Positions 392 through 40,980 of a stretch of 63,950 nt of DNA are shown piece after piece. The DNA is taken from the NCBI GenBank assembly GCA_027592135.1, contig JAQCIJ010000002.1:1-63950 (forward strand), in the 5' to 3' direction. Made by a program: the position numbers and the translations under genes. Under the pieces are notes generated by a model. It searched no databases and was not told where the DNA came from. It saw nothing but the letters and a program-made list of their open reading frames with translations. The stretch comes from a bacterium. GTDB lineage: Bacteria > Patescibacteriota > Gracilibacteria > Peribacterales > Peribacteraceae. Position 1 is the first letter of the stretch. The number at the start of each line of letters is the position of its first letter.

Positions 392-853
392 CTACCTACC
401 GGGAGAGGGAAAGATGCTCTTCTCTGTCTTATACGTGTGGACATACAGGGTGTTCGCGACTTCGGCTATGGAAGTACATACGTTTGATAGGTTGTTCATC
501 ACGTCTTTATTGCTAAAACGCAGTATTCTATATCCGCGTCGTTGGAGTTCTGATGCACGATCTTCATCGTACTCCTGTTGTGCATTATGGATATCTCCGT
601 CCAGCTCTATGATGAGTTTTGCTGAAACACACAGAAAATCCACGATGTATGGCCCGATGGGAACCTGACGCCTGAACTTTATCCCCTGACATTTTCTATT
701 ACGTAAACATCTCCAGAGAGCATCTTCTGCTTCTGTCATACCCTTACGCAAAGAACGTGCGTAAGATTTCTTTCTCTTGTGCATCTGCCATACGCGTTTA
801 TCTTCAGAGAACATAGGTTCATCATACTGCCTCGTTTCCCCCTCTCCCTGCAA
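392..853 (-). CDS. DUF559 (Vsr-like / restriction-endonuclease-fold) domain protein
   Basis: The translation has the family pattern LRKGMTEAEDALWRCLRNRK..GIKFRRQVPIGPYIVDFLC...IIELDGDIH....YDEDRASELQRRGYRILRFSN. The annotated start is a TTG, so the true start may be an internal ATG. Confidence 0.85.
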   Translation of the reverse strand: MQGEGETRQYDEPMFSEDKRVWQMHKRKKSYARSLRKGMTEAEDALWRCLRNRKCQGIKFRRQVPIGPYIVDFLCVSAKLIIELDGDIHNAQQEYDEDRASELQRRGYRILRFSNKDVMNNLSNVCTSIAEVANTLYVHTYKTEKSIFPSPGR

Positions 854-2750: not shown

Positions 2751-3434
2751 ATGAAAAAATTATTCGCTCCAGCACTGTTTGCGCTACTCATCACTGCATG
2801 TGGAGGGGTTACTCCCACAACACTAAGTTATAACGTAACATTTACGACAGACAATACCGATCGCATGAATGATTTGTCTTTGGCTGCACGTCACGTCATT
2901 GAACGAAGACTTGGTCGCCTAGAAGGAAACCTCCTCGATTACGATGTGGCATATGACAAAGAGACAAAAGTAGCGACAATCGATATTGAAATCGATGATA
3001 ATAAAGTAGCATCAGTATTAAATGAAGAGATAATTACACCATTTACTTTCGAAGTACGATACCTCGTAAAAGAACCTACAGATGGTGATATCGAAGTAGA
3101 AGGAGTAGGACACTTTCGCACATCAGAGATAGGTAAAAGCGATGTGGATTGGGTTATCGGTGAAACAACCGAACCACCTCTCAATCGCGGAAGAGTCACT
3201 ATTGGGTTTGCAGATGAATCTATTGAAAATATGCAGGCACTGTTTGCAGCGCAAGCAGGAAACACTATCGGACTGTTTGTACGAAACCGACTAACAGCTG
3301 CAGTACAAATAACGGATGAGTTTGAAAAGATTCTCGTAATAGAAGGACTCCCATCAGGAGAAATTGCTAAAATCTTTGCCGACGACATGAACGTTGGTAT
3401 TCATATGACATTTACTAATCAAAAAACACCATGA
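2751..3434 (+). CDS. Lipoprotein resembling the SecD periplasmic (P1) domain
   Basis: Start chosen at MKKLFAPALFALLITACGG (lipobox). ARHVIERRLGRLEG parallels SecD IRTVLERRINALGV, and NTIGLFVRNRLTAAVQITDEF..VIEGL parallels SecD KRLAIFVGGQLVSAPTVQAEISGGTAVITG. The stop overlaps the secD start (ATGA). Confidence 0.5.
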   Translation: MKKLFAPALFALLITACGGVTPTTLSYNVTFTTDNTDRMNDLSLAARHVIERRLGRLEGNLLDYDVAYDKETKVATIDIEIDDNKVASVLNEEIITPFTFEVRYLVKEPTDGDIEVEGVGHFRTSEIGKSDVDWVIGETTEPPLNRGRVTIGFADESIENMQALFAAQAGNTIGLFVRNRLTAAVQITDEFEKILVIEGLPSGEIAKIFADDMNVGIHMTFTNQKTP

Positions 3435-5842
3435 CACGCAATAAAAAACTAACCTGGCCCACATTCACAATACTCATCGCTATCTGCATGGCTGTTATTG
3501 CATTGCCACAAAGTGCTAAGCAATGGGCACCAGGATTCCTGAAAAACCCCGAGCTACACTTTGGACTTGATCTTGCAGGAGGTACCCAACTGGACTTCCG
3601 TATTTCAGAAAAGGAAATCCTCGAACAGATCACTACATTAAAAAGGGAAATTGCACAGCTCGAAGCGCGTGGTTCTAGTAACGACAAGATCATTGCATTG
3701 CAAAATCAGCTCGCTAGTGTAGAGCAGCAAAACCTTAATGTTGTTGAAGCTATTCGTACTGTTCTCGAAAGACGTATCAACGCATTGGGTGTAAGTGAGG
3801 CCGTTATCACTCCTTCCTACTTCGGAAACGAAAAGCACCTGCTTGTAGAATGTCCTGGAGTTGTCGACACACAAGAGTGTATTAACACTGTCGGGAAAAC
3901 TATTCAGCTTGAATTTAAAGAGGAATTTACCGAGCCAACAGAAGAATATGAAGCTGAAGTACGTACACGCGTAAAAGAAATGCGTGACCAGCTAAAAGAC
4001 CCAGAAATCACCTTAGAGAAACTTGGTGAAGACCTTGGTTCTGATATTGGAGTCTCCTATAACTACGAACGTCGAATGTTCCGTGATCAACTTCCCGATG
4101 GACTTGCAGATGTTTGGTCTAAGGGACCGCGTAGTGGTGTCCTTCAGTACGATGCATCTATAGAAGTACGCTCTCAAGATAGTGCAGGACAGCCTACTAC
4201 AACAGAGGTTCCTGGTGTGTTCCTTGTTGAGGTCCTCCGCGCACGTACGCAAACTGGTCGCCTCGTTAACGAAGCATCAAAAGCATTCGGTATTCTCGAA
4301 GAGACCGATAGAAACATCTCCCACATCACCTGGGATGACCGCTTACTCGAAGACAAGATTCCACAGGTTGTACGGAATGCACTCAGTAGCATGCAGCCAG
4401 GGGAACTACGGGCTGTAAACTTTGAAGATGAGACTTCTGGAATTCTCTTCCTTCGCAAGTACCTTCCAGGTCAGACAGACATGGAAGCGAGTCACATCCT
4501 TATCTCCTATAAAGGAGCATCTTCCGCAGGTGACGACGTAAAACGTTCAAAAGAAGAAGCTCTCGTACTTGCACAGGAACTAAAGACAAAGCTTGATGGA
4601 GGCAATAGATTTGAAACCCTCGCAAAACAATACAGTGATGGTCCTTCTGGCAAAGACGGTGGAAGCCTAGGATCTTTTGGACTTGGAACAATGGTTCCTG
4701 TGTTCGAGCAGGTAGCATCAAGCCAAACAAAGGGTACTATTTCTGAGCCTACAGAGACACAGTTCGGGTACCACATTATCCGCACCGACAGAGTACCTAC
4801 GCTCAACAAAGACACAGCCAGCTACGAACTACTCTCAGTAACAGGAGAAGGTGCAGCAGATAAAACTACAGAACTGATTGGTAAACTTCAGCGTGGAGAG
4901 ATCGAGTCTCTTGAGGACATGGTGTTCTTACGCACGGTCTTCTTCTCTCTTCTTCCTACAGGCTGGAAAGATACATTCCTTGATGGAAAGCACTTCCGTT
5001 CTGCAACAGTTACGTTGGATCCAACAACAAACATTCCGATTGTGCAAATCGCCTTTGATGACGAAGGCGCAAAGCTCTTCCAAGAACTCACAAAAGAAAA
5101 TATCGGTAAGCGACTTGCGATCTTCGTTGGTGGACAACTCGTTTCTGCTCCTACTGTACAAGCAGAAATCTCTGGAGGAACTGCAGTGATTACTGGTAGC
5201 CAGAACTTTGATGAGGCAAATACACTCGCACAAGATCTCAACACTGGTGCTATCCCTGCTCCTATTTACCTCGCAGGACAGCGCACAGTAGAAGCAACAC
5301 TAGGGGCTGAGGCTCTCCGTACATCTATGAAAGCAGCTCTTATTGGAATGCTTATACTAATGGTGTATATGATTGTCATGTACCGTCTCTTAGGACTGAT
5401 TGCAGACCTTGCACTCAGTGTATACGCAATCCTCTTCTTTGCGATCTTAAAGATGCCACTCTTCCTCTTTAGTAGCAGCTACATTGTTCTTACCCTTGCA
5501 GGTATGGCCGGTATCATCCTGAGTATTGGTATGGCGGTAGATGCAAACGTACTGATCTTCGAGCGTATGAAAGAAGAACTCCGCAAAGGAAAGATGCTTA
5601 AGACTGCTACGGAAACAGGATTCACTCGTGCGTGGCCTAGTATCCGCGATGGAAACATCTCGACACTTATCACCTGTACGATTCTCTTTGTTATTGGAAC
5701 ATCCATCGTACGAGGATTCGCCATTACATTGGGCATGGGAGTCTTGATTTCTATGTTCTCCGCTATCGTTATCACCAGATGGTTAGTGCGAAAGGTTAGC
5801 AGAATGCCACTCTCAGAGAAGACGAAGTGGTTCTGTGGTTAG
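3431..5842 (+). CDS. secD: Protein translocase subunit SecD with an inserted PrsA/PpiD-like chaperone plus parvulin PPIase module
   Basis: There is an N-terminal TM helix, then GLDLAGGTQL and ERRINALGVSE. The C-terminal TM bundle carries GMAVDANVLIFERMKEE. Around 4481-4800 the ORF encodes EASHILISYKG...LAKQYSDGPSGKDGGSLGSFGLGTMVPVFE...FGYHIIRTD, a PpiC-type rotamase signature. Confidence 0.85.
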   Translation: MTRNKKLTWPTFTILIAICMAVIALPQSAKQWAPGFLKNPELHFGLDLAGGTQLDFRISEKEILEQITTLKREIAQLEARGSSNDKIIALQNQLASVEQQNLNVVEAIRTVLERRINALGVSEAVITPSYFGNEKHLLVECPGVVDTQECINTVGKTIQLEFKEEFTEPTEEYEAEVRTRVKEMRDQLKDPEITLEKLGEDLGSDIGVSYNYERRMFRDQLPDGLADVWSKGPRSGVLQYDASIEVRSQDSAGQPTTTEVPGVFLVEVLRARTQTGRLVNEASKAFGILEETDRNISHITWDDRLLEDKIPQVVRNALSSMQPGELRAVNFEDETSGILFLRKYLPGQTDMEASHILISYKGASSAGDDVKRSKEEALVLAQELKTKLDGGNRFETLAKQYSDGPSGKDGGSLGSFGLGTMVPVFEQVASSQTKGTISEPTETQFGYHIIRTDRVPTLNKDTASYELLSVTGEGAADKTTELIGKLQRGEIESLEDMVFLRTVFFSLLPTGWKDTFLDGKHFRSATVTLDPTTNIPIVQIAFDDEGAKLFQELTKENIGKRLAIFVGGQLVSAPTVQAEISGGTAVITGSQNFDEANTLAQDLNTGAIPAPIYLAGQRTVEATLGAEALRTSMKAALIGMLILMVYMIVMYRLLGLIADLALSVYAILFFAILKMPLFLFSSSYIVLTLAGMAGIILSIGMAVDANVLIFERMKEELRKGKMLKTATETGFTRAWPSIRDGNISTLITCTILFVIGTSIVRGFAITLGMGVLISMFSAIVITRWLVRKVSRMPLSEKTKWFCG

Positions 5843-9390: not shown

Positions 9391-9421
9391 CTACAAGCTA
9401 CAAGCTACAAGCTACAAGCTA
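9391..9421. repeat. (CTACAAG)x4 heptamer array
   Basis: Four perfect copies lie between the thyA start and the ccdA stop. The unit and orientation are the same as at 8519-8550. Confidence 0.9.
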
Positions 9422-10270
9422 ATTACCTATCTCTTCTCCAAACAACTTCTCTTCAAGCTCTAGGCCAATGTTTCCAAACGATGTACTCGAAACAAGATAT
9501 GTCTCTATTGCACGGAGCCAGTGATAGTTCAGCGCAAGCGCTGTAACAATTAATATACCTCCAGAGATCTGCTTAATACGACCTGAGTACCTAGAGAGCG
9601 CACGAGAAGAATGGGCAGCAGCTTGTCCTCCATATCCGATAAGAAGCAGCGGAACGGACGTACCAAGGCCATACGTCGCAAGCAATGCTGCAGCCTCTAA
9701 GCCCGGCTGCTCCTGTACAAGCGTAAGAGCAAACCCAAGTGCAGGGCCTGCGCACGGCACCCAGACCAGTCCCATGGTAAGTCCAATGAGGAATGCAGTA
9801 ATGGGATTGTCTTGTCCTAGCTCGCCTCTCGCCTTTTGCTGAACATCGGTTCCAAACTGCTGAATACGCGTTGCAATCCATCCACCAACTTCCATAAGAG
9901 TAGCTCCTATAGTTTGTGCGATAGTCATCACAATCCATCCATATTCTAAGTAGAAAAATCCACCAAGAACAGCACCTGTTAGCTGCAATGTTTTATTATG
10001 TGTGAGGAACCCAAATCCAAAGAGCAGCAAAACATAGTACGTAGAAATACGAATATAATCTGCTAGTTCTACAAACTGATTTAAGACAAGTGTAAGTAAA
10101 AACGTAAATCCGACAAAACTCACCAGCATTCCTGCAATGGTAAAAAGCGGCCTCAGTTTGCTTTTTCCTGCAATGCTTACACCAAGAACAATAGGAACGA
10201 GAGGAAGGATGCACGGTAGTAAAATCGTGAGCATCCCCGCTGCAAACATGGTGATATAAAGACTATTCAT
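9419..10270 (-). CDS. ccdA: Cytochrome c biogenesis / thiol-disulfide electron transporter, CcdA (DsbD-core) family
   Basis: Polytopic membrane protein with LLPCILPLVPIVLG and a second motif VWVPCAGPALG. Confidence 0.7.
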   Translation of the reverse strand: MNSLYITMFAAGMLTILLPCILPLVPIVLGVSIAGKSKLRPLFTIAGMLVSFVGFTFLLTLVLNQFVELADYIRISTYYVLLLFGFGFLTHNKTLQLTGAVLGGFFYLEYGWIVMTIAQTIGATLMEVGGWIATRIQQFGTDVQQKARGELGQDNPITAFLIGLTMGLVWVPCAGPALGFALTLVQEQPGLEAAALLATYGLGTSVPLLLIGYGGQAAAHSSRALSRYSGRIKQISGGILIVTALALNYHWLRAIETYLVSSTSFGNIGLELEEKLFGEEIGN

Positions 10271-10288
10271 ACGTACAGAGTGTCAACT

Positions 10289-11107
10289 CTAACCCAAAAG
10301 GTCACGAAGTGCGTCGGAAGAAGGAAAACGGACTCTCTCAATTTCATTCCCGTTTCCGTCAATGAGTATGAATGTATCTTGACCGGTAATACCGAACTGA
10401 GATTTTAAGTCAGTTGCTGTATCGTAATCAATCTTATACACAGATCGAGGATAATCTGCAGATCCATAGAAATCGTTTAGGCGACTGTCATTTTCTTTGC
10501 ACTTAGGACACCACGTCGCATGAAAAAAGAGGACAGACTCTTTTCCGTTTCCAATAACACTAGGTGTGAACGCTGTATACGAACCAACAGATGCTACCTC
10601 TGCACCCTCTGCCATTTCTTCGGACTCTTCGGACTCTTCGGACTCTTCATTCATAGCCTGCACATCATCTATATTCATATACAACAATCGCTTTAATACA
10701 GAAAGAGACGGTGCGACCTCTTTCTTAATCACCTCTCCGGCTCCATCAACCAGAACAAACGTGTCTTGCATTGTGATGCCATATTTCTTTTTGAGTGCAT
10801 CTTCTGTGTCGTAATCTGCACGGTATGTTTTTACAGGAAACTCTGCAGAGCCGTACCACTCGCTAAGGTTCTTATCCTTGGATTGGCAAGCAGGACACCA
10901 AGAAGCATAAAAGAAGATGACAGATTTTTCTCCGTTTCCAACAGCACTGCTTTTAAATGGCAAGTAATCACCAACAAAAGAAGTAACAACTGCTTGTTCT
11001 ATATTTTTTACTTGTGGCTTTACAGCCTCTGTATCTTTAGTAGTTTTCTGATTACATGCGGTAAGTGTTACTGCGAGAACTGCTACAGCGAAGATGGATT
11101 TGCTCAT
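10289..11107 (-). CDS. Lipoprotein with two tandem thioredoxin-fold domains (TlpA/ResA-like)
   Basis: Start chosen at MSKSIFAVAVLAVTLTACN (lipobox). It has two paralogous halves with WCPACQ and WCPKCK, separated by an EESEESEESEE linker. Confidence 0.75.
   Translation of the reverse strand: MSKSIFAVAVLAVTLTACNQKTTKDTEAVKPQVKNIEQAVVTSFVGDYLPFKSSAVGNGEKSVIFFYASWCPACQSKDKNLSEWYGSAEFPVKTYRADYDTEDALKKKYGITMQDTFVLVDGAGEVIKKEVAPSLSVLKRLLYMNIDDVQAMNEESEESEESEEMAEGAEVASVGSYTAFTPSVIGNGKESVLFFHATWCPKCKENDSRLNDFYGSADYPRSVYKIDYDTATDLKSQFGITGQDTFILIDGNGNEIERVRFPSSDALRDLLG
10618..10648. repeat. (CTTCGGACT)x3.4 nonamer array, coding
   Basis: Encodes the EESEESEES linker between the two thioredoxin domains. 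Confidence 0.9.
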
Positions 11108-11168
11108 AAGATATTGGGAATAATGTAACTGCATTCTATGGAGATATTCGATCAACACAAGTGTTCTT

Positions 11169-15129: not shown

Positions 15130-17052
15130 TTAAATCACCTCACCCGCTACATTTTCCCATCGCAGCTTTACAATCTCCTTGTACACCCTCTGTGGAAAGC
15201 TTTCTGGTCCATCAGGTAGTGTAAAAGCGAGCCTGCGTAGGATACGCCCTTGGTCTGGATGACCATTAAGCGCCTTGATTTCGGCTATAAACTGATTGAT
15301 ACGAGACTGGGTCATATCGTAGATAAAGATCTTTTCCTTGATCGTCATCACTATGTGCATCACTGCTTCTTCGGACAGTGATACATCAGTAGTATCTCTC
15401 GGTGCAGGAAGATACATCGCTATATCATCCAAGAGTTCTGGATCTACTTGGGCACCACGATTACTTGCAATATGAAGAGAGGAAGCAAGGAATGTTAAAA
15501 GCATCTTTGCCTCTTTATAGATTGCAGGATCCAAAGCCAGTTCCTCATTTTCGAGAGTGAACAAGTATGGGTGAAGATCAGACCACACAGACTGTACCAA
15601 ATCTATACGTCCTTCATCAGCAGAGCGCATCATTACCGCAAGGCCATCAATCAGCAGTGTCCCTTGTGCATCCTCTTGGCTTGCTACTCCATCAGAAAGC
15701 TCTGCACTGGTTTCCAATACCATCTTTTTAATAGCATACGATTCATCACCTGGAAGTGCTGCAGCCATTTTCGCTGTACTCCCTGCAATAGCACGCTGTA
15801 CGAGGAACTCAGCTAAGCTTCCATGATGCTCTCCGCCAGCAATAGCCTGTAGTGTGTCACGATATTCCTCAAGAACAACATCTGCCTTGTCTCCGTTGTA
15901 AATAAGTGCAGCAGCTTCGTTTAACCTCGTTTCTGCTCCTTGTAGCTGCTTACTTACACGTGTCTCTTGGTCAAAAGTAAACCAAACATCCACCAGCTCT
16001 GCAAAACGCTTTACACCGTAAAACCTCGAAGTTGGTAAGATTCCTGCCTGTGCAATACGACGCTCGTGCTGCATTTGTGCAATATCATGGCGATGCACAG
16101 CATCACGCATCAGATTTTGATCTGCCCATGAATATTGATACCACTTTGCAGGAACTTTCTTTACGAGTAATACATTGTCTTCGTAAAGCCTTGTGCGCTC
16201 ACCAGATGCAAGGAATACCTGCGTTCCATTTTTTTGCACTGTTGCCATACGGTCATACACTTCGACATCAACGTAGTCGTCCTCTGTAATAGAAACACTT
16301 CCTTCGTTTACCGTGATATGACCATGGCTAGTAGCCACAGTAATTCCACGTAACTGTGGTGGAACAAGACCTTGTACCCACATTTTTCCTGTATATAAAG
16401 TCAGTGTTGGGAATATTTCTGACGCAGGCTCTAGTCTGTCAGAAAGATCTTGTAGCTCTACTGTCGTCATACTGTCCAAACGAATAACACCATCATCATG
16501 AAATACGATACTGGCCTCTCCATCATGTGTGCGTAACTTCATACCAGGCTCCAATGCAATCTCGCGCTCTACTGTCTGCCACATTCCACCAATAGATACA
16601 AAAACTTCTCCACGCGTAGGAATAAGAAGTGCTTCTGTTTCCGCTACGGTAGGAGAGGCAATAATAAGCATAGGACTCATGCGAACAAGAAGTCCGAAAA
16701 GCGCGAATGCCGCTGTCCACTTTGCAGTCAAAGGCCAGTACGCAATGTGTTGCACAGGTTCAAGACTCGCAAGAACGCGTGCTTTGATCTGCTCTTTAAG
16801 TTCAGCAGATGGTTGGAATGCAATCTTAATACGTGTAAAGGTACTCGCTTGTGGTAATTCAATCTGTGAAGAAATACGATTCCAGACTGTTTTCTGCAAT
16901 GATTTCTTTGGAGAGCTCGCTACCTTAAGGTCTGCAAAAAGAGAGCTATCCGCTATAATACGCGACTGAATAGATCGCTGTATCCTATCTTTCATATCCG
17001 TACTAGGGCGAATATCTTTCTGAAGGCCTTTGAGGAACTGTTCTGGGGTCAT
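15130..17052 (-). CDS. Membrane protein, putative anti-sigma factor (FecR-like beta domains plus a long helical C-terminal domain)
   Basis: It has a single TM helix (WTAAFALFGLLVRMSPMLIIA), FecR-like segments (GEASIVFHDDGVIRLDSMTTVEL; GHITVNEGSVSI), and sits directly downstream of a sigma factor. Confidence 0.5.
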   Translation of the reverse strand: MTPEQFLKGLQKDIRPSTDMKDRIQRSIQSRIIADSSLFADLKVASSPKKSLQKTVWNRISSQIELPQASTFTRIKIAFQPSAELKEQIKARVLASLEPVQHIAYWPLTAKWTAAFALFGLLVRMSPMLIIASPTVAETEALLIPTRGEVFVSIGGMWQTVEREIALEPGMKLRTHDGEASIVFHDDGVIRLDSMTTVELQDLSDRLEPASEIFPTLTLYTGKMWVQGLVPPQLRGITVATSHGHITVNEGSVSITEDDYVDVEVYDRMATVQKNGTQVFLASGERTRLYEDNVLLVKKVPAKWYQYSWADQNLMRDAVHRHDIAQMQHERRIAQAGILPTSRFYGVKRFAELVDVWFTFDQETRVSKQLQGAETRLNEAAALIYNGDKADVVLEEYRDTLQAIAGGEHHGSLAEFLVQRAIAGSTAKMAAALPGDESYAIKKMVLETSAELSDGVASQEDAQGTLLIDGLAVMMRSADEGRIDLVQSVWSDLHPYLFTLENEELALDPAIYKEAKMLLTFLASSLHIASNRGAQVDPELLDDIAMYLPAPRDTTDVSLSEEAVMHIVMTIKEKIFIYDMTQSRINQFIAEIKALNGHPDQGRILRRLAFTLPDGPESFPQRVYKEIVKLRWENVAGEVI

Positions 17053-17091
17053 TCGTAAGTTATAACGGAAATAATTGGCTGATGTTACACA

Positions 17092-17682
17092 TCAAATAGC
17101 ATAAACAGCACGATATTCTTTAATATTTTCGGGTAAAAGAAGTTCAAGTTTCTTGAGAGCTCTATGCTTTAAAATACGCACAGAACCTTCTGTTATATGC
17201 AATACACGGGCAATTTCGCTATGTGGCAGGTCTGCCATATAGGAAAGCAACAATACTTCTCGATATCGAGAAGGCAAATGCTCCATAGAGGAATTGACCA
17301 TTTTAAGCATCTCATCTCGTCCTACCTTTGTATCGGCATTATTGAACAAGTCACTATCTACAAGCTCTTCTGGCATTTCTTCAAATCCTCGGTGCGTCCT
17401 GTAGGAATCAATCACCTTGTGTCGTGCAATACGGAACAACCATGCCGCAAATGGCACATTCTTGCGTTCTTTGTACGTATGAAGCTTTTCCCATACTTTT
17501 ACGAAGATATCTGCTACCAAATCCTCAGCGACTTCATTCGGTACACGAAAAGCGGTATAGCGATACACCTGCAAAAAATACATGTCGTAGATCTTGCCAA
17601 AAGACTCCGTACAGCCATCCTGAGCACGTCGCACGTACTCTGGTAGAAGTGTCTGCTGAATGTCTACTTTCGGCGTATCCAT
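17092..17682 (-). CDS. Sigma-70 family (ECF-type) RNA polymerase sigma factor
   Basis: Region 2 (YRYTAFRVPNEVAEDLVADIFVKVWEKL) and region 4 (LPSRYREVLLLSYMADLPHSEIARVLHITEGSVRILKHRALKKL). Start chosen at MDTPKV, which avoids overlapping guaA. Confidence 0.8.
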   Translation of the reverse strand: MDTPKVDIQQTLLPEYVRRAQDGCTESFGKIYDMYFLQVYRYTAFRVPNEVAEDLVADIFVKVWEKLHTYKERKNVPFAAWLFRIARHKVIDSYRTHRGFEEMPEELVDSDLFNNADTKVGRDEMLKMVNSSMEHLPSRYREVLLLSYMADLPHSEIARVLHITEGSVRILKHRALKKLELLLPENIKEYRAVYAI

Positions 17683-17765
17683 CAATGAGAAGAAGTGAAG
17701 CCCTATTCTAGCATAGAAACGTTGGAAACAAGCCCCTGTTACACACTTAATCTTGACACCCCATC

Positions 17766-19553
17766 CTACTCCCACTCAATCGTCCCCGGTGGCTTATGCG
17801 TCAGATCTTGAAATACAACATCGACCCCCTCAAGAGCAAGTAGCCGTTGCGTCATTACAGCCACAACATCTTTTGGCAGATCAACCGCATTCGCTGTCAT
17901 CGCCTCTTGGCTTTCGACAGGGCGAAGAACAATAGACAATCCCCCTTCGGATGTCCCGAACGGAAGTAACACAACGGGGAATTGCCAGATAGATTCGTAG
18001 AGACCTGCGACTCCCATCTCATTATGAACAATGGCATCTGCTTGACGTAAAATCTCTGTTCGCTCTTTGGAAACATACCCTGGAGAGAACACAAACTCTG
18101 GTGGTGTGCTGTGCGACGTACACATCAACACACGATTGAAATCTTCTGATGCATTCGGAATAGATGTGGCAAGCTCCCAACACTTCTCGTCTGCAAATTG
18201 CTCATCACTAAACAGTGCAATGGCATGGCGGTAACTTCTTCCATCTCCTTGTACACCAACAGATTTAATAGGAAGAGCTGCGTACGCGATATGACGCAAC
18301 ACAGATTTAGGACAGCTCACACGAGAAGGTTCTTGTGCACACAGTATTCTTACGCCAAGACCAGGTCCTGGAAACGGGTGTCTCCAGACAAGATCGTGCG
18401 GGAGTCCAAGCTCTTCTCCGAGTGCGCGCACTTCATCTTTGTAGAGCTCTCGTAGAGGTTCGACAACCAAACCCTCCTTCATCATCTGCTGAATAGCATC
18501 AATCCGATTATGATGCGTCTTAATTGTATCCGCGTTCTTTGTTTCACCAGTTTCGATTGTATCGGGATAAATCGTTCCTTGTCCGAGCATCCAACCATCT
18601 TCCATTTTTAAGTTCATCTCTTCGCTCACACGTTTTTGTACAGACAAGAATGCATCGCCAATAATCCAACGTTTGTCTTCTGGCTCGTAGACCTCAGCAA
18701 GTTTTTTCAAAAAGTATGCTGATGCATCTTCGATACGAAGATTGGTAATCCCCAGTGCATCAAATGCTTTTTTTATTTGTATTGTTTCATCTTTGCGCAT
18801 CATTCCCGTATCTATGTACAAGCCCTGTACGCGATCTTCTCCGAGGACTTGGTTCAGTAAAACAAAAGCAACGGTAGAATCCACTCCACCCGATACCAAC
18901 ATAAAGACTTTGCGATCCCCTACTTCTTTTTTTAGAGCCTCTCCAATGTGGTCTTTATAACTTTCAATACTCCATTCCGCTGCATCACACGTCTTCACAA
19001 AGTTTTCTATCAGTGTCTGTCCGTGTTCTGTATGCACTACTTCTGGGTGAAACTGCACAGCAGTAAAGTTCCGATCTATATCCGCTATAAATGCATTACT
19101 GCAATTATTTGATGTACCTATTCGCTCAAAACCTTCGGGTAACAGAGTAACTTCATCCCCATGACTCATCCATACAATCATTTCCTTGGGTAATCCACTG
19201 CCAATTCCCAAATTCCTATTCCCTATGTGCAACTTTGCCTTCCCATATTCTTTTACCTCCCCCTGGCTCACTTCTCCCCCTAGCGTCTTTGCCATCCATT
19301 GTAATCCATAGCAAATACCCAGCACGGGAATACCGAGTTCAAATAGAGCAGGATCCCCTTGTGGACTCTTAGGATCGTACACACTTTGTGGGCCTCCAGA
19401 GAGGATGATTCCTGCAGCATTCTTCAGCTCCTGCGCAGATGTATCTGCATCCTTAATCTCCGAGTACACACCGCATTGGCGTACCCTACGGGCAATGAGA
19501 TGCGCGTACTGACCTCCAAAATCGAGAACAATTATTGATCGCTGATGATCCAT
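17766..19553 (-). CDS. guaA: GMP synthase (glutamine-hydrolysing)
   Basis: GATase domain (GICYGLQ), ATP-PPase P-loop (VSGGVDSTV), and a C-terminal dimerisation domain ending PPGTIEWE. Confidence 0.92.
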   Translation of the reverse strand: MDHQRSIIVLDFGGQYAHLIARRVRQCGVYSEIKDADTSAQELKNAAGIILSGGPQSVYDPKSPQGDPALFELGIPVLGICYGLQWMAKTLGGEVSQGEVKEYGKAKLHIGNRNLGIGSGLPKEMIVWMSHGDEVTLLPEGFERIGTSNNCSNAFIADIDRNFTAVQFHPEVVHTEHGQTLIENFVKTCDAAEWSIESYKDHIGEALKKEVGDRKVFMLVSGGVDSTVAFVLLNQVLGEDRVQGLYIDTGMMRKDETIQIKKAFDALGITNLRIEDASAYFLKKLAEVYEPEDKRWIIGDAFLSVQKRVSEEMNLKMEDGWMLGQGTIYPDTIETGETKNADTIKTHHNRIDAIQQMMKEGLVVEPLRELYKDEVRALGEELGLPHDLVWRHPFPGPGLGVRILCAQEPSRVSCPKSVLRHIAYAALPIKSVGVQGDGRSYRHAIALFSDEQFADEKCWELATSIPNASEDFNRVLMCTSHSTPPEFVFSPGYVSKERTEILRQADAIVHNEMGVAGLYESIWQFPVVLLPFGTSEGGLSIVLRPVESQEAMTANAVDLPKDVVAVMTQRLLALEGVDVVFQDLTHKPPGTIEWE

Positions 19554-24778: not shown

Positions 24779-25147
24779 ATGCTCGAACAATCCACCATCA
24801 GAGTTTTGCTCCCAATTGGGTTCTTTAGCGGGCTTGTTGCCATGCTCATGCTTGGGGAATCGTTTAAGCATATTCAGGCGACAACAGTAATAATTAATGG
24901 AGAGACCCCACAAGTACAACAGGTTCCTACTCCTGCGCAGGCATTACCTCGTTGTAAACAAAATAGTGATTGCCCTCTTCCTACAACGTATTGCAGTCAA
25001 AGTGGAAAATGCACGCAACTCACAAATCCTATCTGTGATTGTAGTCAGCCACAGGTATTGCGATGCTACGAAGAGTCAGGAAAAGCACGATTCTTGTTTT
25101 GTCCGAGTGCATGTGTAGAAACCAGAAACGGTGCTATCTGCCAATAA
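24779..25147 (+). CDS. Small membrane-anchored Cys-rich protein
   Basis: It has an N-terminal hydrophobic helix and 10 Cys in the C-terminal 70 aa (CKQNSDCPLPTTYCSQSGKCTQLTNPICDCSQP..). It lies immediately upstream of a DsbA-like gene. Confidence 0.5.
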   Translation: MLEQSTIRVLLPIGFFSGLVAMLMLGESFKHIQATTVIINGETPQVQQVPTPAQALPRCKQNSDCPLPTTYCSQSGKCTQLTNPICDCSQPQVLRCYEESGKARFLFCPSACVETRNGAICQ

Positions 25148-25169
25148 AAAAATCCGCTACAGTAAATCT

Positions 25170-25844
25170 ATGAGACGCTATGTTTTTCTTTTGAGCTTGC
25201 TAATCCTGCTTACTGCGTGCGTGCCTCTCGAAGCACCCCAAAAAGCACCTGCACAACAGGATCAAGTAGAAGCATTAGACAGTGACCAGCTAGAATCAGA
25301 AGATGGGCAACTGCAGATTGTCGAACGACTTCTACCATCTGGACTCATAGAAATTGGTGACCGCGATGCACCAGTAGTTCTTCTAATATTTACCGAGCAC
25401 CACTGTCGTTACTGTAAAGACTTTTATCACGAGCACTTCCCCCTTCTGATCGAAGACTTTGTAACCCAAGGAAAACTAAAACTGCAAATTAGCATCTTGC
25501 CACTACGTAAATACATTCACAGCCAAAATGCAGCACTGGGACTTTTATGTGGGGCAACGCAAGGTAAGGGAATCCCCATGCATGAGCTCCTCTTCGCTCT
25601 TGGGGCTAAAGATCGAGAAGCTCTCCTTAGTGAAGCTGCCACATTAGAACTCGATCAAGATCTTTTTGTACAATGCCTCGATAGCCCAGATACACTCAAG
25701 ACTGTGGAGAGGCAAAAGTCCATCGCACGGTCTCTCGATGTCACCCTTGTTCCAACATTCTTCCTCAACGGGGAAAAGTCTGTAGGCCTTCCGCAGTATG
25801 CAGACTTACGAGGAATGATTGAAGTAGTAACTACGGACGAATAA
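25170..25844 (+). CDS. DsbA-like thioredoxin-fold lipoprotein
   Basis: The start MRRYVFLLSLLILLTACV carries a lipobox. The CxxC motif is in FTEHHCRYCKDF, followed by a DsbA-like helical insertion and VPTFFLNG. Confidence 0.7.
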   Translation: MRRYVFLLSLLILLTACVPLEAPQKAPAQQDQVEALDSDQLESEDGQLQIVERLLPSGLIEIGDRDAPVVLLIFTEHHCRYCKDFYHEHFPLLIEDFVTQGKLKLQISILPLRKYIHSQNAALGLLCGATQGKGIPMHELLFALGAKDREALLSEAATLELDQDLFVQCLDSPDTLKTVERQKSIARSLDVTLVPTFFLNGEKSVGLPQYADLRGMIEVVTTDE

Positions 25845-27906: not shown

Positions 27907-28797
27907 CTACACAAACTCCTTCATCAACTCCGATACATCCGTAATCGCTACTTCATCCACTACAGTAGTTTTTATTCCTTGCCTCGGTACAAGCTTCTCG
28001 TAGAAGTGCGGATGGTCTTCTGTCTGGTATAAAATCCCACAGGAAACTTTCTTGGATGTATCACAGGCGATCTTTTTGGCAGCTTCGAAGTCCGATGCAT
28101 CATGTCCATCTGCATTCGCATCGTAGCAATGCTCCAACAGCCACTCGTGTGTAGCGAACTTGTTATACGTTGGACACGCTTGGAGGATATCAACAAAGGC
28201 AAAGCCTCTGTGCTTAATTGCTGCCTTAAGAACTTTTGTCATCTGCGGGATATCTCCACTCCAAGTCCTCGCGACAAATGTAGGCTGCAGAGAGAAGATG
28301 AAATCCATCGGATTAATCGTATCTTCTGGGATTCCATTTGGTGATGTGTTCATCGGTTGATTTTGCCATGTCAGTGAACTCGCCTGCCCTTGTGTTAATC
28401 CAAAGTTTGCGTTGTTATGCAAAACGAACGTAATCGGATAGTGGCTACGAACGCTGTGCACCAAGTGATTCACACCTTCGGAGAAACTCGCACCATCTCC
28501 TCCAAAGGCAAGTACAGGCATATTCGGATTGGCAAGCTTCGCACCAGACGCAAACGGAAGCACGCGGCCATGTAGTCCATGCACTCTGTACCCAAGCATC
28601 TTGTCTGATGCATTTCCGTGACAACCAATATCAAAACACATCAACACTTCGTGCGGTGCAATTTCAAGTTCTACAAGTGCACGTTTTGCAGCAGCCATGA
28701 TTCCATAATCTCCACAACCGTCGCACCATGTACATTCCGTCTTACAGAAGTAATCATGAACGCTTGGCTTGCCTGTGCTTTCGAGTGAAATAGACAT
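27907..28797 (-). CDS. 2-oxoacid:acceptor oxidoreductase, beta (TPP-binding) subunit
   Basis: WCDGCGDYGI, GGDGASFSEGVNHL, and DILQACPTYNK. Confidence 0.85.
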   Translation of the reverse strand: MSISLESTGKPSVHDYFCKTECTWCDGCGDYGIMAAAKRALVELEIAPHEVLMCFDIGCHGNASDKMLGYRVHGLHGRVLPFASGAKLANPNMPVLAFGGDGASFSEGVNHLVHSVRSHYPITFVLHNNANFGLTQGQASSLTWQNQPMNTSPNGIPEDTINPMDFIFSLQPTFVARTWSGDIPQMTKVLKAAIKHRGFAFVDILQACPTYNKFATHEWLLEHCYDANADGHDASDFEAAKKIACDTSKKVSCGILYQTEDHPHFYEKLVPRQGIKTTVVDEVAITDVSELMKEFV

Positions 28798-28800
28798 AAT

Positions 28801-28828
28801 TAATTGTTAATTGTTCATTGTTAATAGT
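28801..28828. repeat. (TAATTGT)-type heptamer array
   Basis: Reads taattgt taattgt tcattgt taatagt. It spans the alpha-beta spacer and supplies the last codons (LLTMNN) and the stop of the alpha subunit. Confidence 0.85.
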
Positions 28829-30549
28829 TTCCCTTGAAGTTCATCAAAGAAAAACGGACGTCCGTCGTACTTTAAGATCTGATGATCAAATGTAAGACCA
28901 GATTCCATACGAATCAGCTTTGAAAGATGTCCTTGATACGTTGCTTCGATGAAAATAATTTTCTTTGCTTTCGCCGCAAGTGCTTCGAGCTTCTCTATAC
29001 GAAGAGGCCAGAGGTAACTGTAGTGCAAGTATCCGATTCCTTTTTGATCTTTTATTGCATCCAAAATACATCCCTTGTTACTCCCCCAACTGACAATAAG
29101 TGTCTCTGGATTTTGATCTCCAAACAATTCTGGATCCGGAAGAGCAGCCTTCATCACTGCCATCTTCTTCATACGCTTATCCATCTGTTCTATGGCATTT
29201 TGTCCGCCCTCTTCTACATTCCCTTCGCTATCATGTTCATCTCCCTGAGCGCAGTACGTAGCGGCTTTCGCTCCTGGTAACCACCGTGGAGAGATGCCAT
29301 CTTTTGCAGCAGGATTATAACGGTCTGCACTTACGAGCTTGTCGAGCTCAGCCTGCTTCGTAACCAGGTTTCCACGACTGATCTTTGCTTTTTTGAGATC
29401 ATATTGTGGCTGCATATATAAACCCTCTGCGATATGCTTATCCGTAAGAATAGTCACAGGCAACTGATACTCCTCTGCGTAGTTAAACGCATCTGGCATC
29501 AAGTCGAAACAATCTTGGCTATCGCTTACAGCCATCACCAGCCGTGGATATTCTCCATGAGACCCAAAGATCGAAAGCAACATATCACCCTGCCCACTCC
29601 ATGTCGGAAGTCCTGTAGAAGGGCCTTGCCGCATAGCAAGAACCATCACAGATGGATTCTCGATGATTCCATTAAGCGACAGTGTCTCGGACATTAAATC
29701 ATATCCACCACCCGAGGTAGCAGTCGCAGCCCTCGTCCCCATATGCATCGCACCCGATACCATTTGTATAGCGGTGATCTCATCTTCCGCCTGCTTTACC
29801 ACCATGTTCGTCTTATTCTGATTATCTGCAATATATTTAAGAAGTGGAGAAGCTGGTGTCATCGGATATCCACAATACATACGGCACCCCGCATGCACCA
29901 TTCCCATACCCATTGCTTCACTTCCTGTTACCAGTAAGTCATCTGTTCGAGCAGCATCTGGAGATGGTACATCTATCACTATCGCACCTGCACTCTCTTC
30001 TTTAAACTTTTTCCCTTCGTCAATAAACGTGTGATTCAGTGCGATGACCTTTTCTCCTTTGTGTGCAAACTGTTCAGCCGCCATGTCTTTAAGTGTGTCG
30101 TAATTTCTTCCTAGTAGTCCCCACACAACTGCCGTCACACACATGTTTCCAACAATCGGGCGACTGTTGTGTTCTTTTAAGATTTTCTCCATCGGTAGAT
30201 AGAGAATCTGAATTTTTTTGTCATCGAGCATTTTCTGATCCTCCGCAGAAAACTTCCAATCGGGAATCAAATGCAGCAGCACTCCTCCTTCTTTTACTGA
30301 TCCAAGATCGCGCTGAAGTCCGATGTAGTTTAAGCACACCAAGATATCGACATGAGTCTCAGAAGACTCGATATGAGAGTCGCAGATATCTAGCTGATAA
30401 CTACTGTGTCCTCCTTTAATTACCGACATATATTCACGATATCCAAACACATGGTGCCCCGCACGCTTAAGACCCTTCGCCACCATCTCACCTACAGAGT
30501 TAATACCCTGTCCTTGTGCGCCAGTGACTTTAAAGGAAATTCTGCTCAT
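28807..30549 (-). CDS. 2-oxoacid:acceptor oxidoreductase, alpha subunit with an N-terminal gamma-like domain
   Basis: VTGAQGQGINSVGEMVAKGL (gamma-type domain), then GYPMTPASP and the transketolase-like C-terminal region. No delta/ferredoxin subunit lies adjacent. Confidence 0.85.
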   Translation of the reverse strand: MSRISFKVTGAQGQGINSVGEMVAKGLKRAGHHVFGYREYMSVIKGGHSSYQLDICDSHIESSETHVDILVCLNYIGLQRDLGSVKEGGVLLHLIPDWKFSAEDQKMLDDKKIQILYLPMEKILKEHNSRPIVGNMCVTAVVWGLLGRNYDTLKDMAAEQFAHKGEKVIALNHTFIDEGKKFKEESAGAIVIDVPSPDAARTDDLLVTGSEAMGMGMVHAGCRMYCGYPMTPASPLLKYIADNQNKTNMVVKQAEDEITAIQMVSGAMHMGTRAATATSGGGYDLMSETLSLNGIIENPSVMVLAMRQGPSTGLPTWSGQGDMLLSIFGSHGEYPRLVMAVSDSQDCFDLMPDAFNYAEEYQLPVTILTDKHIAEGLYMQPQYDLKKAKISRGNLVTKQAELDKLVSADRYNPAAKDGISPRWLPGAKAATYCAQGDEHDSEGNVEEGGQNAIEQMDKRMKKMAVMKAALPDPELFGDQNPETLIVSWGSNKGCILDAIKDQKGIGYLHYSYLWPLRIEKLEALAAKAKKIIFIEATYQGHLSKLIRMESGLTFDHQILKYDGRPFFFDELQGKLLTMNN

Positions 30550-30573
30550 ACTAATGACTCATAACGAATGACG

Positions 30574-31044: not shown

Positions 31045-31113
31045 AGTCGAGAAGCATTGTACTCTGAATTCCCTCATTGAGAAAACCGCTATTTTCGTGT
31101 AAAATATTAGGAA

Positions 31114-36592: not shown

Positions 36593-36619
36593 TTTTCCTA
36601 CTTTCTCCCACGTTTTCCC

Positions 36620-37213: not shown

Positions 37214-37253
37214 TCCTATTTCCCAAGTTCCCAAGCTCCCTATTTCCCAAGTT
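37214..37253. repeat. (CCCAAGTT)-type octamer array, 5 units
   Basis: Reads tcctattt cccaagtt cccaagct ccctattt cccaagtt. It fills the K-E spacer up to the start codon. Confidence 0.85.
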
Positions 37254-37257
37254 TTCC

Positions 37258-39199: not shown

Positions 39200-39215
39200 T
39201 TTTCCCACTCCTATC

Positions 39216-40979: not shown

Positions 40980-40980
40980 C

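What the first reader, a model, noticed from the sequence alone, without database searches (positions are those of the whole stretch)
2751..5842. SecD carrying an embedded PrsA/PpiD-like chaperone-parvulin module, preceded by a free SecD-P1-like lipoprotein, with no adjacent SecF
The 803-aa SecD has the normal N-terminal TM helix, P1 elements and C-terminal TM bundle. Between GKTIQLEFKEE and the P1 base there are about 300 extra residues. These end in an unmistakable PpiC-type rotamase signature (about 4481-4800: EASHILISYKG...GGSLGSFGLGTMVPVFE...FGYHIIRTD), preceded by a SurA/PrsA-like helical region. In model bacteria the periplasmic chaperone PpiD/PrsA acts next to SecYEG-SecDF as a separate protein, so a physical fusion here would be a Rosetta-stone link.

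The upstream, translationally coupled lipoprotein (2751-3434) shows local similarity to SecD P1 segments. No secF follows; folB comes next.
Basis: partly seen in the sequence, partly recalled or inferred. Interest (0 to 1): 0.7.

Follow-up and report, generated by a model that had tools for sequence, protein, structure and literature searches.

The report
SecD export motor with built-in foldase
This gene encodes the SecD subunit of the bacterial protein-export motor with a protein-folding enzyme (a parvulin prolyl isomerase) built into its mobile outer head; the design is real, is shared by many bacteria of the Candidate Phyla Radiation, and has apparently not been described in the literature.

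Summary
ORF 3431-5842 (803 aa) is a genuine SecD: TIGR01129 scores 350 bits against a cutoff of 244. About 300 extra residues sit inside the P1 head, including a canonical parvulin at residues 349-458. That parvulin matches Pfam Rotamase at E 2e-26 and Pin1 at TM 0.85, and its catalytic residues are conserved in 40-41 of 41 homologs.

It is not an assembly chimera. At least 120 protein clusters from independent assemblies, mostly labelled Peregrinibacteria where named, share the architecture.

The "SurA/PrsA-like helical chaperone" part of the reading is not supported. The region before the parvulin is alpha/beta, with a long beta-hairpin of unknown fold followed by a probable degenerate parvulin remnant.

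The upstream lipoprotein, joined to secD by an ATGA overlap, is a paralog of the SecD P1 head (hhalign 96%).

secF is not missing from the lineage. Related genomes carry it unlinked, in one case next to trigger factor, and one subclade has it fused to secD.

Simpler parvulin-in-SecD forms (single, tandem, SecDF-fused) are widespread in Parcubacteria, Moranbacteria, Kerfeldbacteria and other Patescibacteria. All are annotated simply as "SecD", and seven literature searches found no description.

The most likely function is a covalent version of the known PpiD, SurA or PrsA cooperation with SecDF. I rate it a new variant of a known kind, of moderate to high interest.

The parts
2751..3434 (+). 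Lipoprotein (227 aa, lipobox LITAC) whose C-terminal half is a paralog of the SecD P1 head. It is translationally coupled to secD by an ATGA overlap.
   Evidence: sequence. BLASTP of residues 121-216 against SecD 521-606, E 3e-5; hhalign 96.3%, E 1.9e-9; orthologs sit directly upstream of secD in L001, L002, L084 and L085 (and in L086, where downstream sequence is limited). Pfam P1_head is sub-threshold (13.7 bits against 27).
3431..5842 (+). secD ORF, 803 aa, with an insertion of about 300 aa in the P1 head.
3452..3520 (+). TM1 (residues about 8-30), the signal-anchor helix.
   Evidence: Helix 8-24 in the model. Aligns with the N-terminus of T. thermophilus SecDF.
3611..3736 (+). Extra helical hairpin (residues 61-102) between the GG-motif strand and SecD_1st. 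It is specific to the Peregrinibacteria type.
   Evidence: Helices 61-80 and 84-102. The region is absent from the short-form sequences printed.
3746..3922 (+). SecD_1st, the N-terminal part of the P1 base (residues 106-164).
   Evidence: Pfam PF21760, E 8e-13.
3923..4042 (+). First helices of the P1 head (residues 165-204), collinear with T. thermophilus residues about 120-156.
   Evidence: alignment; helices 171-188 and 195-202.
4043..4264 (+). Lineage-specific beta-rich sub-region (residues 205-278) with a long beta-hairpin; fold unknown.
   Evidence: pLDDT about 85-90. No Pfam, hhalign or Foldseek relative.
4265..4465 (+). Probable degenerate parvulin remnant (residues 279-345) that lacks beta1 and has no catalytic His (SGILFLRKY where the true domain has FGYHIIRTD).
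   Evidence: The sister-clade protein P0128, residues 240-311, hits the parvulin HMM (conditional E 6e-6) and aligns to this block. hhalign 80-90%, E 1e-5 to 2e-6. The window family's own profile is not significant, and Foldseek is negative.
4475..4804 (+). Canonical PpiC/parvulin PPIase domain (residues 349-458) with its catalytic set retained (H355, D403, T443, H448).
   Evidence: Pfam Rotamase E 2e-26. PDB PrsA1 E 4e-15. Foldseek Pin1 PPIase TM 0.85-0.87, rmsd 0.9-1.3 A. Catalytic residues conserved in 40-41 of 41 homologs.
4805..4948 (+). Connector regC (residues 459-506): a beta1-like strand DTASYELLSV, a helix at 475-488, and a strand at 492-506 leading into the P1 head.
   Evidence: DSSP; the regC HMM hits mainly Peregrinibacteria-type proteins; an analogous trailing strand occurs in the short forms.
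4949..5260 (+). P1 head core (residues 507-610).
   Evidence: Pfam PF22599, E 1e-27. Aligns to T. thermophilus residues 165-260.
5303..5800 (+). TM2-TM6 (residues 625-790), including the invariant TM4 Asp D704 in the GMAVDANV motif.
   Evidence: Pfam SecD_SecF_C. Five helices in the model. D704 present in 41 of 41 homologs. Aligned to T. thermophilus GAAVDGNV.

Best explanation
The window comes from a Peregrinibacteria (CPR/Patescibacteria) genome. Gene 3431-5842 encodes the SecD half of the proton-driven SecDF motor that pulls exported proteins out of SecYEG.

Its mobile extracytoplasmic P1 head carries about 300 inserted residues, in this order:
- a lineage-specific beta-hairpin region;
- a degenerate parvulin remnant;
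- a complete parvulin prolyl isomerase with its catalytic residues intact;
- a short connector.

Shown: the domain identities, their order, their extracytoplasmic location, the conservation of the catalytic residues and the proton-relay Asp, and the wide occurrence of the design.

Inferred: the head that captures the emerging unfolded chain brings its own foldase to the SecYEG exit. Capture, pulling and prolyl isomerisation or first folding would then be coupled within one polypeptide. This would be the covalent counterpart of the non-covalent PpiD-SecD, SurA-SecDF and PrsA-Sec partnerships of model bacteria.

SecF is supplied by an unlinked gene, or is fused to secD in one subclade. The translationally coupled upstream lipoprotein is a duplicated P1-head module and probably works with this SecD. 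Its exact role is unknown.
For: - SecD identity.
- Parvulin identity, fold and conserved H355/D403/T443/H448.
- Position of the insert inside the P1 head.
- TM4 Asp invariant.
- At least 120 clusters with the same architecture in Peregrinibacteria.
- About 85 of the 150 best 50%-identity representatives carry a parvulin between the P1 base and head.
- Named relatives of the simpler forms are all Patescibacteria (Parcubacteria, Moranbacteria, Kerfeldbacteria).
- Free-standing SecF proteins of 297-304 aa are common in Peregrinibacteria. Some are listed with the same longest-contig length as SecD homologs (697,289; 723,749; 156,835 bp).
- secF and secD are each more than 8 kb from the other.
- A fused SecD-parvulin-SecF ORF exists in a Peribacterales subclade.
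- The lipoprotein is homologous to the P1 head and its position is conserved.
[quoted passage not shown] The periplasmic domains of SecDF are proposed to recruit SurA (PMC9987972). PrsA-homolog lipoproteins form a complex with the Sec translocon in M. pneumoniae (bioRxiv 10.1101/2025.04.25.650208).
Against: - There is no experimental evidence for this protein.
- The whole-protein model has pTM 0.36, so the relative orientation of the domains is not known. That includes whether the parvulin active site faces the substrate path.
- Parvulin domains of PpiD, and the first parvulin of SurA, are known to be dispensable or inactive (established knowledge; PMC9643414 notes the doubt). Conserved catalytic residues therefore do not prove that isomerase activity matters.
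- SecF was not seen in the window's own genome, because only 64 kb is available.
- Whether these genomes also have a free PrsA or PpiD could not be checked.
- Residues 205-278 remain unexplained.
Confidence: 0.75

Rival explanations
1. The embedded parvulin is a non-catalytic binding module. It enlarges the substrate-holding surface of the P1 head, acting as a holdase or clamp as the PpiD and SurA-P1 parvulins do, without prolyl isomerisation being important.
For: A first parvulin in the same insert has already degenerated. Tandem and permuted forms exist in which some strands have lost the His (for example RARQIVIA in P0181). The functional importance of the PpiD parvulin domain has been questioned (PMC9643414).
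Against: The second parvulin keeps H355, D403, T443 and H448 in 40-41 of 41 homologs down to 57% identity. It also superposes on active Pin1 at 0.9-1.3 A. Such conservation is not expected for a purely structural module.
Confidence: 0.2
2. The insert and the P1-like lipoprotein serve an envelope-specific structural purpose, not folding of exported substrates. Examples would be building a chamber or scaffold over the translocon, or contacting the cell wall or S-layer.
For: The beta-hairpin region (205-278) and the extra helical hairpin (61-102) have no enzymatic signature. The lipoprotein is a duplicated head module. In Mycoplasma, PrsA-like lipoproteins build a dome over the Sec translocon (bioRxiv 10.1101/2025.04.25.650208).
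Against: The simplest and most widespread forms contain only the parvulin between the P1 base and head, with no lipoprotein nearby. The conserved core of the trait is therefore the parvulin itself.
Confidence: 0.07
3. The ORF is an assembly or gene-calling artefact that joins a parvulin gene to secD.
For: None was found. The GC profile is smooth across the ORF.
Against: The same uninterrupted architecture appears in at least 120 clusters from NCBI, JGI, ENA and Logan assemblies, including contigs of 0.7-1.25 Mb and a complete genome, CP082927.1. The parvulin lies in the middle of the SecD domain order, not at an end.
Confidence: 0.01

Closest known systems
Canonical SecD/SecDF (T. thermophilus SecDF, PDB 3AQP/5XAN; E. 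coli SecD, 5MG3)
   Same: TM1, P1 (base plus head), then TM2-6. The Sec GG motif, SecD_1st, P1 head and SecD_SecF_C domains are all present. The TM4 Asp is conserved. The protein passes the TIGR01129 cutoff.
   Different: About 314 extra residues lie inside the P1 head, including one intact and one degenerate parvulin. There is an extra helical hairpin after the GG motif. secF is unlinked. A duplicated P1-head lipoprotein is encoded upstream.
PrsA (Bacillus/Listeria extracytoplasmic lipoprotein foldase)
   Same: PrsA parvulin domains are the best sequence matches to the parvulin here: 6XD8 at E 4e-15 and 6VJ6 at E 4e-14. Both are extracytoplasmic and membrane-tethered, and act after Sec translocation in what is presumed to be a single-membrane cell.
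   Different: There is no PrsA-type helical N/C chaperone domain around the parvulin. The tether is SecD itself rather than a lipid anchor.
PpiD-YfgM and SurA acting at SecYEG-SecDF (E. coli)
   Same: A parvulin-containing factor is positioned at the periplasmic face of the translocon and contacts the periplasmic domain of SecD/SecDF (PMC9643414, PMC9987972). Like SurA, this insert has one degenerate and one intact parvulin.
   Different: In E. coli these are separate proteins that associate non-covalently and have SurA_N-type chaperone domains. Here the parvulins are inserted into the SecD polypeptide and no SurA_N-like domain was detected.
Mycoplasma pneumoniae Sec translocon 'dome' complex (Mdp436/444/489, PrsA homologs)
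   Same: A translocation machine is physically coupled to an extracellular foldase in a genome-reduced bacterium. A lipoprotein partner is involved (bioRxiv 10.1101/2025.04.25.650208; 10.1101/2024.09.05.611430).
   Different: In Mycoplasma the coupling is non-covalent and uses large separate lipoproteins. Here the foldase domain is part of SecD, and the accompanying lipoprotein is a P1-head paralog, not a PrsA homolog.

Membership tests
SecD (TIGR01129 / Pfam SecD_1st + SecDF_P1_head + SecD_SecF_C) | Scores above the curated family cutoff | tested here: met
   TIGR01129 scores 350.2 bits against a cutoff of 244.4. PF21760 scores 48 against 27, PF22599 96 against 27, and PF02355 42 against 20.5.
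SecD (TIGR01129 / Pfam SecD_1st + SecDF_P1_head + SecD_SecF_C) | Topology: TM1, large extracytoplasmic P1, then five C-terminal TM helices | tested here: met
   The model has a helix at 8-24 and five long helices at 625-790. It is collinear with 3AQP, 5XAN and 5MG3.
SecD (TIGR01129 / Pfam SecD_1st + SecDF_P1_head + SecD_SecF_C) | Conserved proton-relay Asp in TM4 (T. thermophilus D340, E. coli D519; residue numbers from memory) | tested here: met
   D704 in GMAVDANV aligns with T. thermophilus GAAVDGNV. It is present in 41 of 41 homologs.
SecD (TIGR01129 / Pfam SecD_1st + SecDF_P1_head + SecD_SecF_C) | A SecF partner encoded in the same genome | tested here: inconclusive
   None is present in the 64-kb window. 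Free SecF is common in Peregrinibacteria and appears to share large contigs with SecD homologs. It is fused to secD in L003 and L004. The rest of the window's own genome is not available.
Parvulin / PpiC-type PPIase (PF00639) | Sequence match above the cutoff, and a parvulin fold | tested here: met
   PF00639 scores 93.4 bits against a cutoff of 21.7. Foldseek to the Pin1 PPIase domain gives TM 0.85-0.87 and rmsd 0.9-1.3 A over about 108 columns.
Parvulin / PpiC-type PPIase (PF00639) | Catalytic His, Cys/Asp, Ser/Thr, His set (Pin1 H59, C113, S154, H157; from established knowledge) | tested here: met
   H355 41/41, D403 40/41, T443 40/41, H448 41/41. The mapping to Pin1 residues rests on motif position, not on a residue-by-residue structural readout.
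Parvulin / PpiC-type PPIase (PF00639) | Measurable prolyl isomerase activity | not testable with these tools
   This needs a protease-coupled or NMR PPIase assay on the purified domain.
PrsA / SurA / PpiD chaperone-parvulin module | A helical N- (and C-) terminal chaperone domain (SurA_N type) flanking the parvulin | tested here: not met
   No SurA_N-type Pfam family was found at E <= 0.1. Residues 205-345 are alpha/beta with long strands. The isolated region has no PDB neighbour: best E 0.3, TM below 0.2.
Free SecD-P1-like lipoprotein (upstream gene) | Lipoprotein signal peptide with a lipobox Cys | tested here: met
   MKKLFAPALFALLITAC. The Cys is invariant and the L-[TA]-A-C motif is conserved in all 5 orthologs. 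This was read from the sequence; no dedicated predictor was run.
Free SecD-P1-like lipoprotein (upstream gene) | Homology to the SecDF P1 head | tested here: met
   hhalign 96.3%, E 1.9e-9, residues 122-214 against SecD 515-606. The lipoprotein HMM hits Peregrinibacteria SecD heads at E 1e-6 to 1e-9. Pfam alone is below the cutoff at 13.7 against 27, and PDB 3AQO reaches only E 0.3.
Free SecD-P1-like lipoprotein (upstream gene) | Homology of the N-terminal half to the P1 base (SecD_1st) | tested here: inconclusive
   hhalign 51%, E 1.6e-4, over a single 23-residue helix (VIERRLGRL against VLERRINAL). The match is collinear but short.

The most novel reading that the evidence does not exclude
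Because the parvulin sits in the P1 head, it would be carried through the head's proton-motive-force-driven swings (the F-form to I-form movement known from T. thermophilus SecDF). That would make it an energy-coupled extracytoplasmic foldase, a chaperone arm actuated by the proton gradient in a compartment that has no ATP.

In the Peregrinibacteria version, the canonical parvulin may be nested inside a circularly permuted, degenerate parvulin. The duplicated P1-head lipoprotein would then dock as a second head to form a small folding chamber over the translocon exit.
Probability: 0.15. Interest if true: 0.85.

Novelty: new variant of a known kind. Interest (0 to 1): 0.6.

Why it matters
How proteins leaving SecYEG are handed to extracytoplasmic chaperones, and what the SecDF periplasmic domains do in that hand-over, is still debated. 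Current evidence is photocrosslinks between PpiD and SecD, low-resolution SurA-holotranslocon maps, and the Mycoplasma dome complex.

A natural covalent fusion of a catalytically intact parvulin into the mobile SecD head, conserved across a large part of the Candidate Phyla Radiation, is independent evolutionary evidence that foldase and SecD head act together at the same place.

It also offers a single-polypeptide target for structural and biochemical work on that coupling.

It matters for CPR biology too. These small-genome, probably single-membrane organisms seem to have merged two envelope-biogenesis functions into one gene, and databases label that gene only as "SecD".

Tried and rejected
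1. SurA_N/PrsA-type chaperone domain before the parvulin. Rejected: no Pfam hit, an alpha/beta secondary structure, and no Foldseek neighbour for residues 200-348 modelled alone.

2. Whole of regN (200-347) as a degenerate parvulin, tested with the family's own profile. Not significant: hhalign probability 0.2-0.5%, E 0.1-0.3. Only when sister-clade sequences are used does the C-terminal half (about 279-345) reach 80-90%. I therefore call it probable, not proven.

3. Assembly chimera. Rejected.

4. "secF is absent from the lineage." Rejected: free SecF proteins are abundant in Peregrinibacteria.

5. Trying to show secD and secF coordinates on the same NCBI contig. This failed, because the look-up showed only a Logan contig. 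Co-residence rests on identical longest-contig lengths.

6. Metagenome scan for the lipoprotein. It returned only 2 close relatives because the search uses exact peptide patterns. The lipoprotein profile therefore has only 5 sequences, and its PDB search was weak: 3AQO at E 0.3.

7. Literature. Seven full-text searches found no description of a parvulin inside SecD. This does not cover subscription-only journals or InterPro architecture tables.

8. tRNA scan of the window. No tRNA genes were found.
Full report
**1. What is in the sequence**

ORF 3431-5842 (+) encodes 803 aa. Pfam gives this domain order:
- Sec_GG, 42-58 (weak)
- SecD_1st, 106-164 (E 8e-13)
- Rotamase/PpiC, 355-452 (E 2e-26)
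- SecDF_P1_head, 513-610 (E 1e-27; profile positions 17-114)
- SecD_SecF_C, 618-789

NCBIfam TIGR01129 (secD) scores 350 bits against a cutoff of 244, split in two stretches by the insert.

Against solved structures, query 95-199 aligns with T. thermophilus SecDF residues 49-156, and query 522-790 with residues 165-426. About 314 residues are therefore extra, and they lie after the first helices of the P1 head. The best PDB matches to the parvulin are PrsA parvulin domains (6XD8, E 4e-15).

The upstream ORF starts at ATG 2751 (MKKLFAPALFALLITAC, a lipobox). Its TGA stop overlaps the secD ATG, giving ATGA at 3431-3434. folB starts 3 nt after the secD stop and is followed by the folK and folE ORFs (their identity is inferred from the HPPK and GTP cyclohydrolase I genes in the syntenic locus L084). 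GC content is smooth across the ORF.

**2. Not a chimera, and from which lineage**

A search of 5.8 billion clustered proteins returned at least 120 clusters at 57-95% identity. All are about 800-818 aa and all carry SecD_1st + Rotamase + P1_head + SecD_SecF_C. They come from NCBI, JGI, ENA and Logan assemblies, including contigs of 0.7-1.25 Mb. With one exception, the names given are Candidatus Peribacter, Peribacteria, Peregrinibacteria or 'Patescibacteria group'. The exception, a MAG labelled 'Kiritimatiellales', is probably mis-binned.

A 58%-identical homolog on the complete 1.24-Mb genome CP082927.1 has the same neighbourhood: CoA_binding_3, NTP_transferase, a 221-aa protein with a faint P1_head hit, then SecD-parvulin. 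The 74%-identical homolog in L084 reproduces the window's gene order through folB, folK, folE, DHFR and ThyA.

**3. Anatomy of the insert**

An AlphaFold2 model built from 41 homologs has mean pLDDT 76 and pTM 0.36, but pLDDT is 85-93 across residues 170-510. Foldseek matches the model to two things only:
- SecDF structures, at E about 1e-14;
- the Pin1 PPIase domain, for the parvulin (TM 0.85-0.87, rmsd 0.9-1.3 A over about 108 columns).

Residues 349-458 therefore form a canonical, contiguous parvulin.

The catalytic-set positions are H355 (41/41), D403 (40/41), T443 (40/41) and H448 (41/41). M421 and F425 are also conserved. Mapping these to Pin1 H59/C113/S154/H157 rests on established knowledge of parvulin motifs.

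The SecD TM4 Asp (D704, in GMAVDANV) is invariant. It aligns with the T. thermophilus GAAVDGNV motif.

**4. The region before the parvulin is not SurA/PrsA-like**

DSSP shows residues 205-345 to be mixed alpha/beta, with a long hairpin (strands 237-249 and 255-278). No SurA_N-type family is detected. Modelled alone, residues 200-348 give pLDDT 85 and pTM 0.5, and have no PDB neighbour (best E 0.3, TM below 0.2). The family's own profile of this region shows no significant similarity to the parvulin.

There is, however, indirect evidence that its C-terminal half is a decayed parvulin:
- A 40%-identical sister-clade protein, P0128, has a second parvulin-HMM hit at residues 240-311 (profile positions 33-107, conditional E 6e-6).
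- In the full-length alignment that hit falls on window residues about 281-345.
- The sister-clade profile of this block matches the parvulin profile at 80-90% probability, E 1e-5 to 2e-6, in register from the helices to beta4.
- The window has SGILFLRKY where the true domain has FGYHIIRTD, so the His is lost.

I therefore read residues 279-345 as a probable degenerate parvulin remnant that lacks beta1. Residues 205-278 I read as a lineage-specific hairpin region of unknown fold.

Two strands (208-216 and 296-305) appear in the full-length model but not in the fragment model. This suggests that they pair with elements outside the fragment.

**5. Wider family**

An exhaustive HMMER scan of 1.84 billion 50%-identity representatives gave 38,146 hits at E up to 0.001. 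Among the 150 best, about 85 have a parvulin between SecD_1st and the P1 head. They fall into these forms:
- a short form of about 540-620 aa, with the parvulin directly after SecD_1st;
- a form of about 660-700 aa, several of them with two recognisable parvulins;
- SecDF-fused forms of about 900-1120 aa;
- the Peregrinibacteria type, with regN and regC.

A profile of the non-Peregrinibacteria forms retrieved 120 top hits that all carry Rotamase + SecD domains. Every named one is from Patescibacteria: Parcubacteria, Moranbacteria, Kerfeldbacteria or 'Patescibacteria group'. Labelled genome loci agree: a Parcubacteria MAG (L009), and a MAG labelled Gammaproteobacteria (L010) that is probably mislabelled.

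In the short forms the parvulin match starts at HMM position 18-29, so beta1 is missing, and an EV[KR]ASHILI-like strand follows beta4. Moving that strand to the front in silico extends the match to position 2-4 and adds 5-17 bits in 11 of 12 cases. This is an apparent circular permutation.

The window protein has a comparable trailing strand (DTASYELLSV, 460-469) after its canonical parvulin. One possibility is that this strand completes the degenerate remnant, so that the canonical parvulin is nested inside a permuted one. This is a hypothesis only.

**6. secF**

No SecF-like ORF lies in the window, nor within 8-10 kb of secD in L001 or L084. A Peribacterales protein, P0121 (HLC75673.1, 1119 aa), is SecD-parvulin-SecF in one ORF, as is L004 at 1126 aa.

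Using its SecF part as a probe, free-standing SecF proteins of 297-304 aa (51-60% identity) turn out to be abundant in Peregrinibacteria. Several are listed with exactly the same longest-contig lengths as SecD homologs:
- 697,289 bp: P0347 (SecF) and P0013 (SecD)
- 723,749 bp: P0286 and P0097
- 156,835 bp: P0344 and P0042

In L083, secF is followed directly by trigger factor, and no secD lies within 8 kb. So 'no adjacent SecF' is correct, but SecF is not missing from the lineage. For the window's own genome this is an inference.

**7. The lipoprotein**

Five orthologs (32-74% identity) conserve the lipobox and an IFADDMNVG.H motif, which parallels LAQDLNTGAIP in SecD. Profile-profile comparison aligns lipoprotein residues 122-214 with SecD 515-606, the P1 head, at 96.3% probability and E 1.9e-9.

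The lipoprotein HMM hits only two things:
- its orthologs, which lie directly upstream of secD in L001, L002, L084 and L085;
- Peregrinibacteria-type SecD heads, at E 1e-6 to 1e-9.

It hits none of the roughly 75 other SecDs among the fetched loci. This fits a duplication of P1 within the lineage.

The N-terminal half resembles SecD_1st only over one helix (51%, E 1.6e-4). The gene is absent from the two loci where secF is fused to secD. With only two such loci, I do not lean on that pattern.

**8. How it most likely works**

Shown:
- a bona fide SecD with the proton-relay Asp;
- an intact parvulin in the extracytoplasmic, mobile P1 head;
- strong purifying selection on the parvulin's catalytic residues;
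- wide conservation of the arrangement.

From established knowledge (Tsukazaki et al. 2011 and Furukawa et al. 2017 on T. thermophilus SecDF), the P1 head binds the emerging preprotein and swings between conformations driven by the proton gradient.

From the literature read here:
- The periplasmic domains of SecDF are proposed to recruit SurA to the SecYEG exit (PMC9987972).
- In M. pneumoniae, PrsA-homolog lipoproteins form a near-obligate complex with the Sec translocon (bioRxiv 10.1101/2025.04.25.650208).

Inference: in these CPR bacteria the foldase is built into the SecD head, so that capture, pulling and prolyl isomerisation or first folding happen on one polypeptide. The main rival is that the parvulin is a binding module whose isomerase activity is unimportant. 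Conservation of the catalytic residues argues against that but cannot exclude it.

**9. Comparison, novelty and score**

The protein is a member of the SecD family and contains a member of the parvulin family. It is not a member of the PrsA/SurA/PpiD chaperone architecture, because the defining helical chaperone domain was tested for and not found.

Seven full-text literature searches found no description of a parvulin inside SecD. Databases call these proteins simply 'SecD'.

I rate it a new variant of a known kind. It is a robust, widespread and apparently undescribed domain insertion, with a clear and testable functional implication for the debated link between SecDF and extracytoplasmic chaperones. 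Interest: 0.6.

**10. Context of the window**

The rest of the window fits a Peregrinibacteria genome. It contains:
- folate and thymidylate genes;
- def, gatB, efp, a sigma factor and guaA;
- cell-envelope glycosyltransferases;
- a 2-oxoacid:ferredoxin oxidoreductase and an ADP-forming acyl-CoA synthetase;
- a V/A-type ATPase operon;
- infC;
- a prfB gene with a programmed +1 frameshift;
- DsbD-like, thioredoxin and DsbA-like genes.

No second parvulin and no yajC, yidC or secY gene was recognised in the window among the ORFs scanned.

Noticed in passing
window 47436-48528 (+): The release factor 2 gene (prfB) has a classic programmed +1 frameshift. A short N-terminal piece from GTG 47436 ends at CTT TGA G (47499-47505), preceded by a Shine-Dalgarno-like GGGGAAGGA. 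The body continues in the +1 frame to 48528. The PCRF domain match starts only at profile position 64 in the called ORF.
   Followed up: partly
L010 4368-5987; also P0171, P0203, P0207, P0394, P0423, P0430: In the short-form CPR SecDs the embedded parvulin lacks its N-terminal beta1 strand. An EV[KR]ASHILI-like strand follows beta4 instead. Moving that strand to the front in silico extends the HMM match to position 2-4 and adds 5-17 bits in 11 of 12 cases. This looks like a circularly permuted parvulin.
   Followed up: partly
L003 3559-6918; L004 3547-6927: A Peribacterales subclade encodes SecD-parvulin-SecF as one ORF of 1119-1126 aa. In both loci there is no P1-like lipoprotein gene upstream, in contrast to the window's clade, which has the lipoprotein and an unlinked secF.
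   Followed up: partly
L083 8001-10191: In a 74%-identity relative, the free-standing secF is immediately followed by trigger factor (tig). A membrane export-motor subunit thus sits next to the ribosome-associated chaperone.
   Followed up: no
window 3611-3736 (SecD residues 61-102): An extra helical hairpin, possibly coiled-coil-like, lies between the Sec GG-motif strand and SecD_1st. It is conserved in the Peregrinibacteria-type proteins and absent from the short CPR forms and from T. thermophilus SecDF.
   Followed up: no
window 9419-11158 (-) and 25131-25844 (+): Extracytoplasmic thiol-redox genes lie in the same window: a DsbD_TM-like membrane protein, a protein with two thioredoxin-like domains, and a DsbA-like thioredoxin. 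These are oxidative-folding functions near the export and foldase gene.
   Followed up: no
window 34667-43832 (+): A V/A-type ATPase operon (subunits I, c, E, C/AC39, A, B, D) takes the place of an F-type ATP synthase operon in this window. Upstream are 2-oxoacid:ferredoxin oxidoreductase subunits, a flavodoxin and an ADP-forming acyl-CoA synthetase (27907-33195).
   Followed up: no
P0063 and P0370; L010: MAGs labelled Kiritimatiellales (both the SecD-parvulin and the matching SecF) and 'uncultured Gammaproteobacteria' carry CPR-type SecD-parvulin genes. The contigs are probably mis-binned or mislabelled.
   Followed up: no
window 15130-17775 (-): A 640-aa protein with a DUF5667 domain lies directly downstream of an ECF-type sigma-70 factor gene (17092-17775). 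This could be a sigma/anti-sigma pair.
   Followed up: no
window 392-853 (-): A DUF559 (very-short-patch-repair-like endonuclease) gene sits at the window edge and is read from a TTG start.
   Followed up: no
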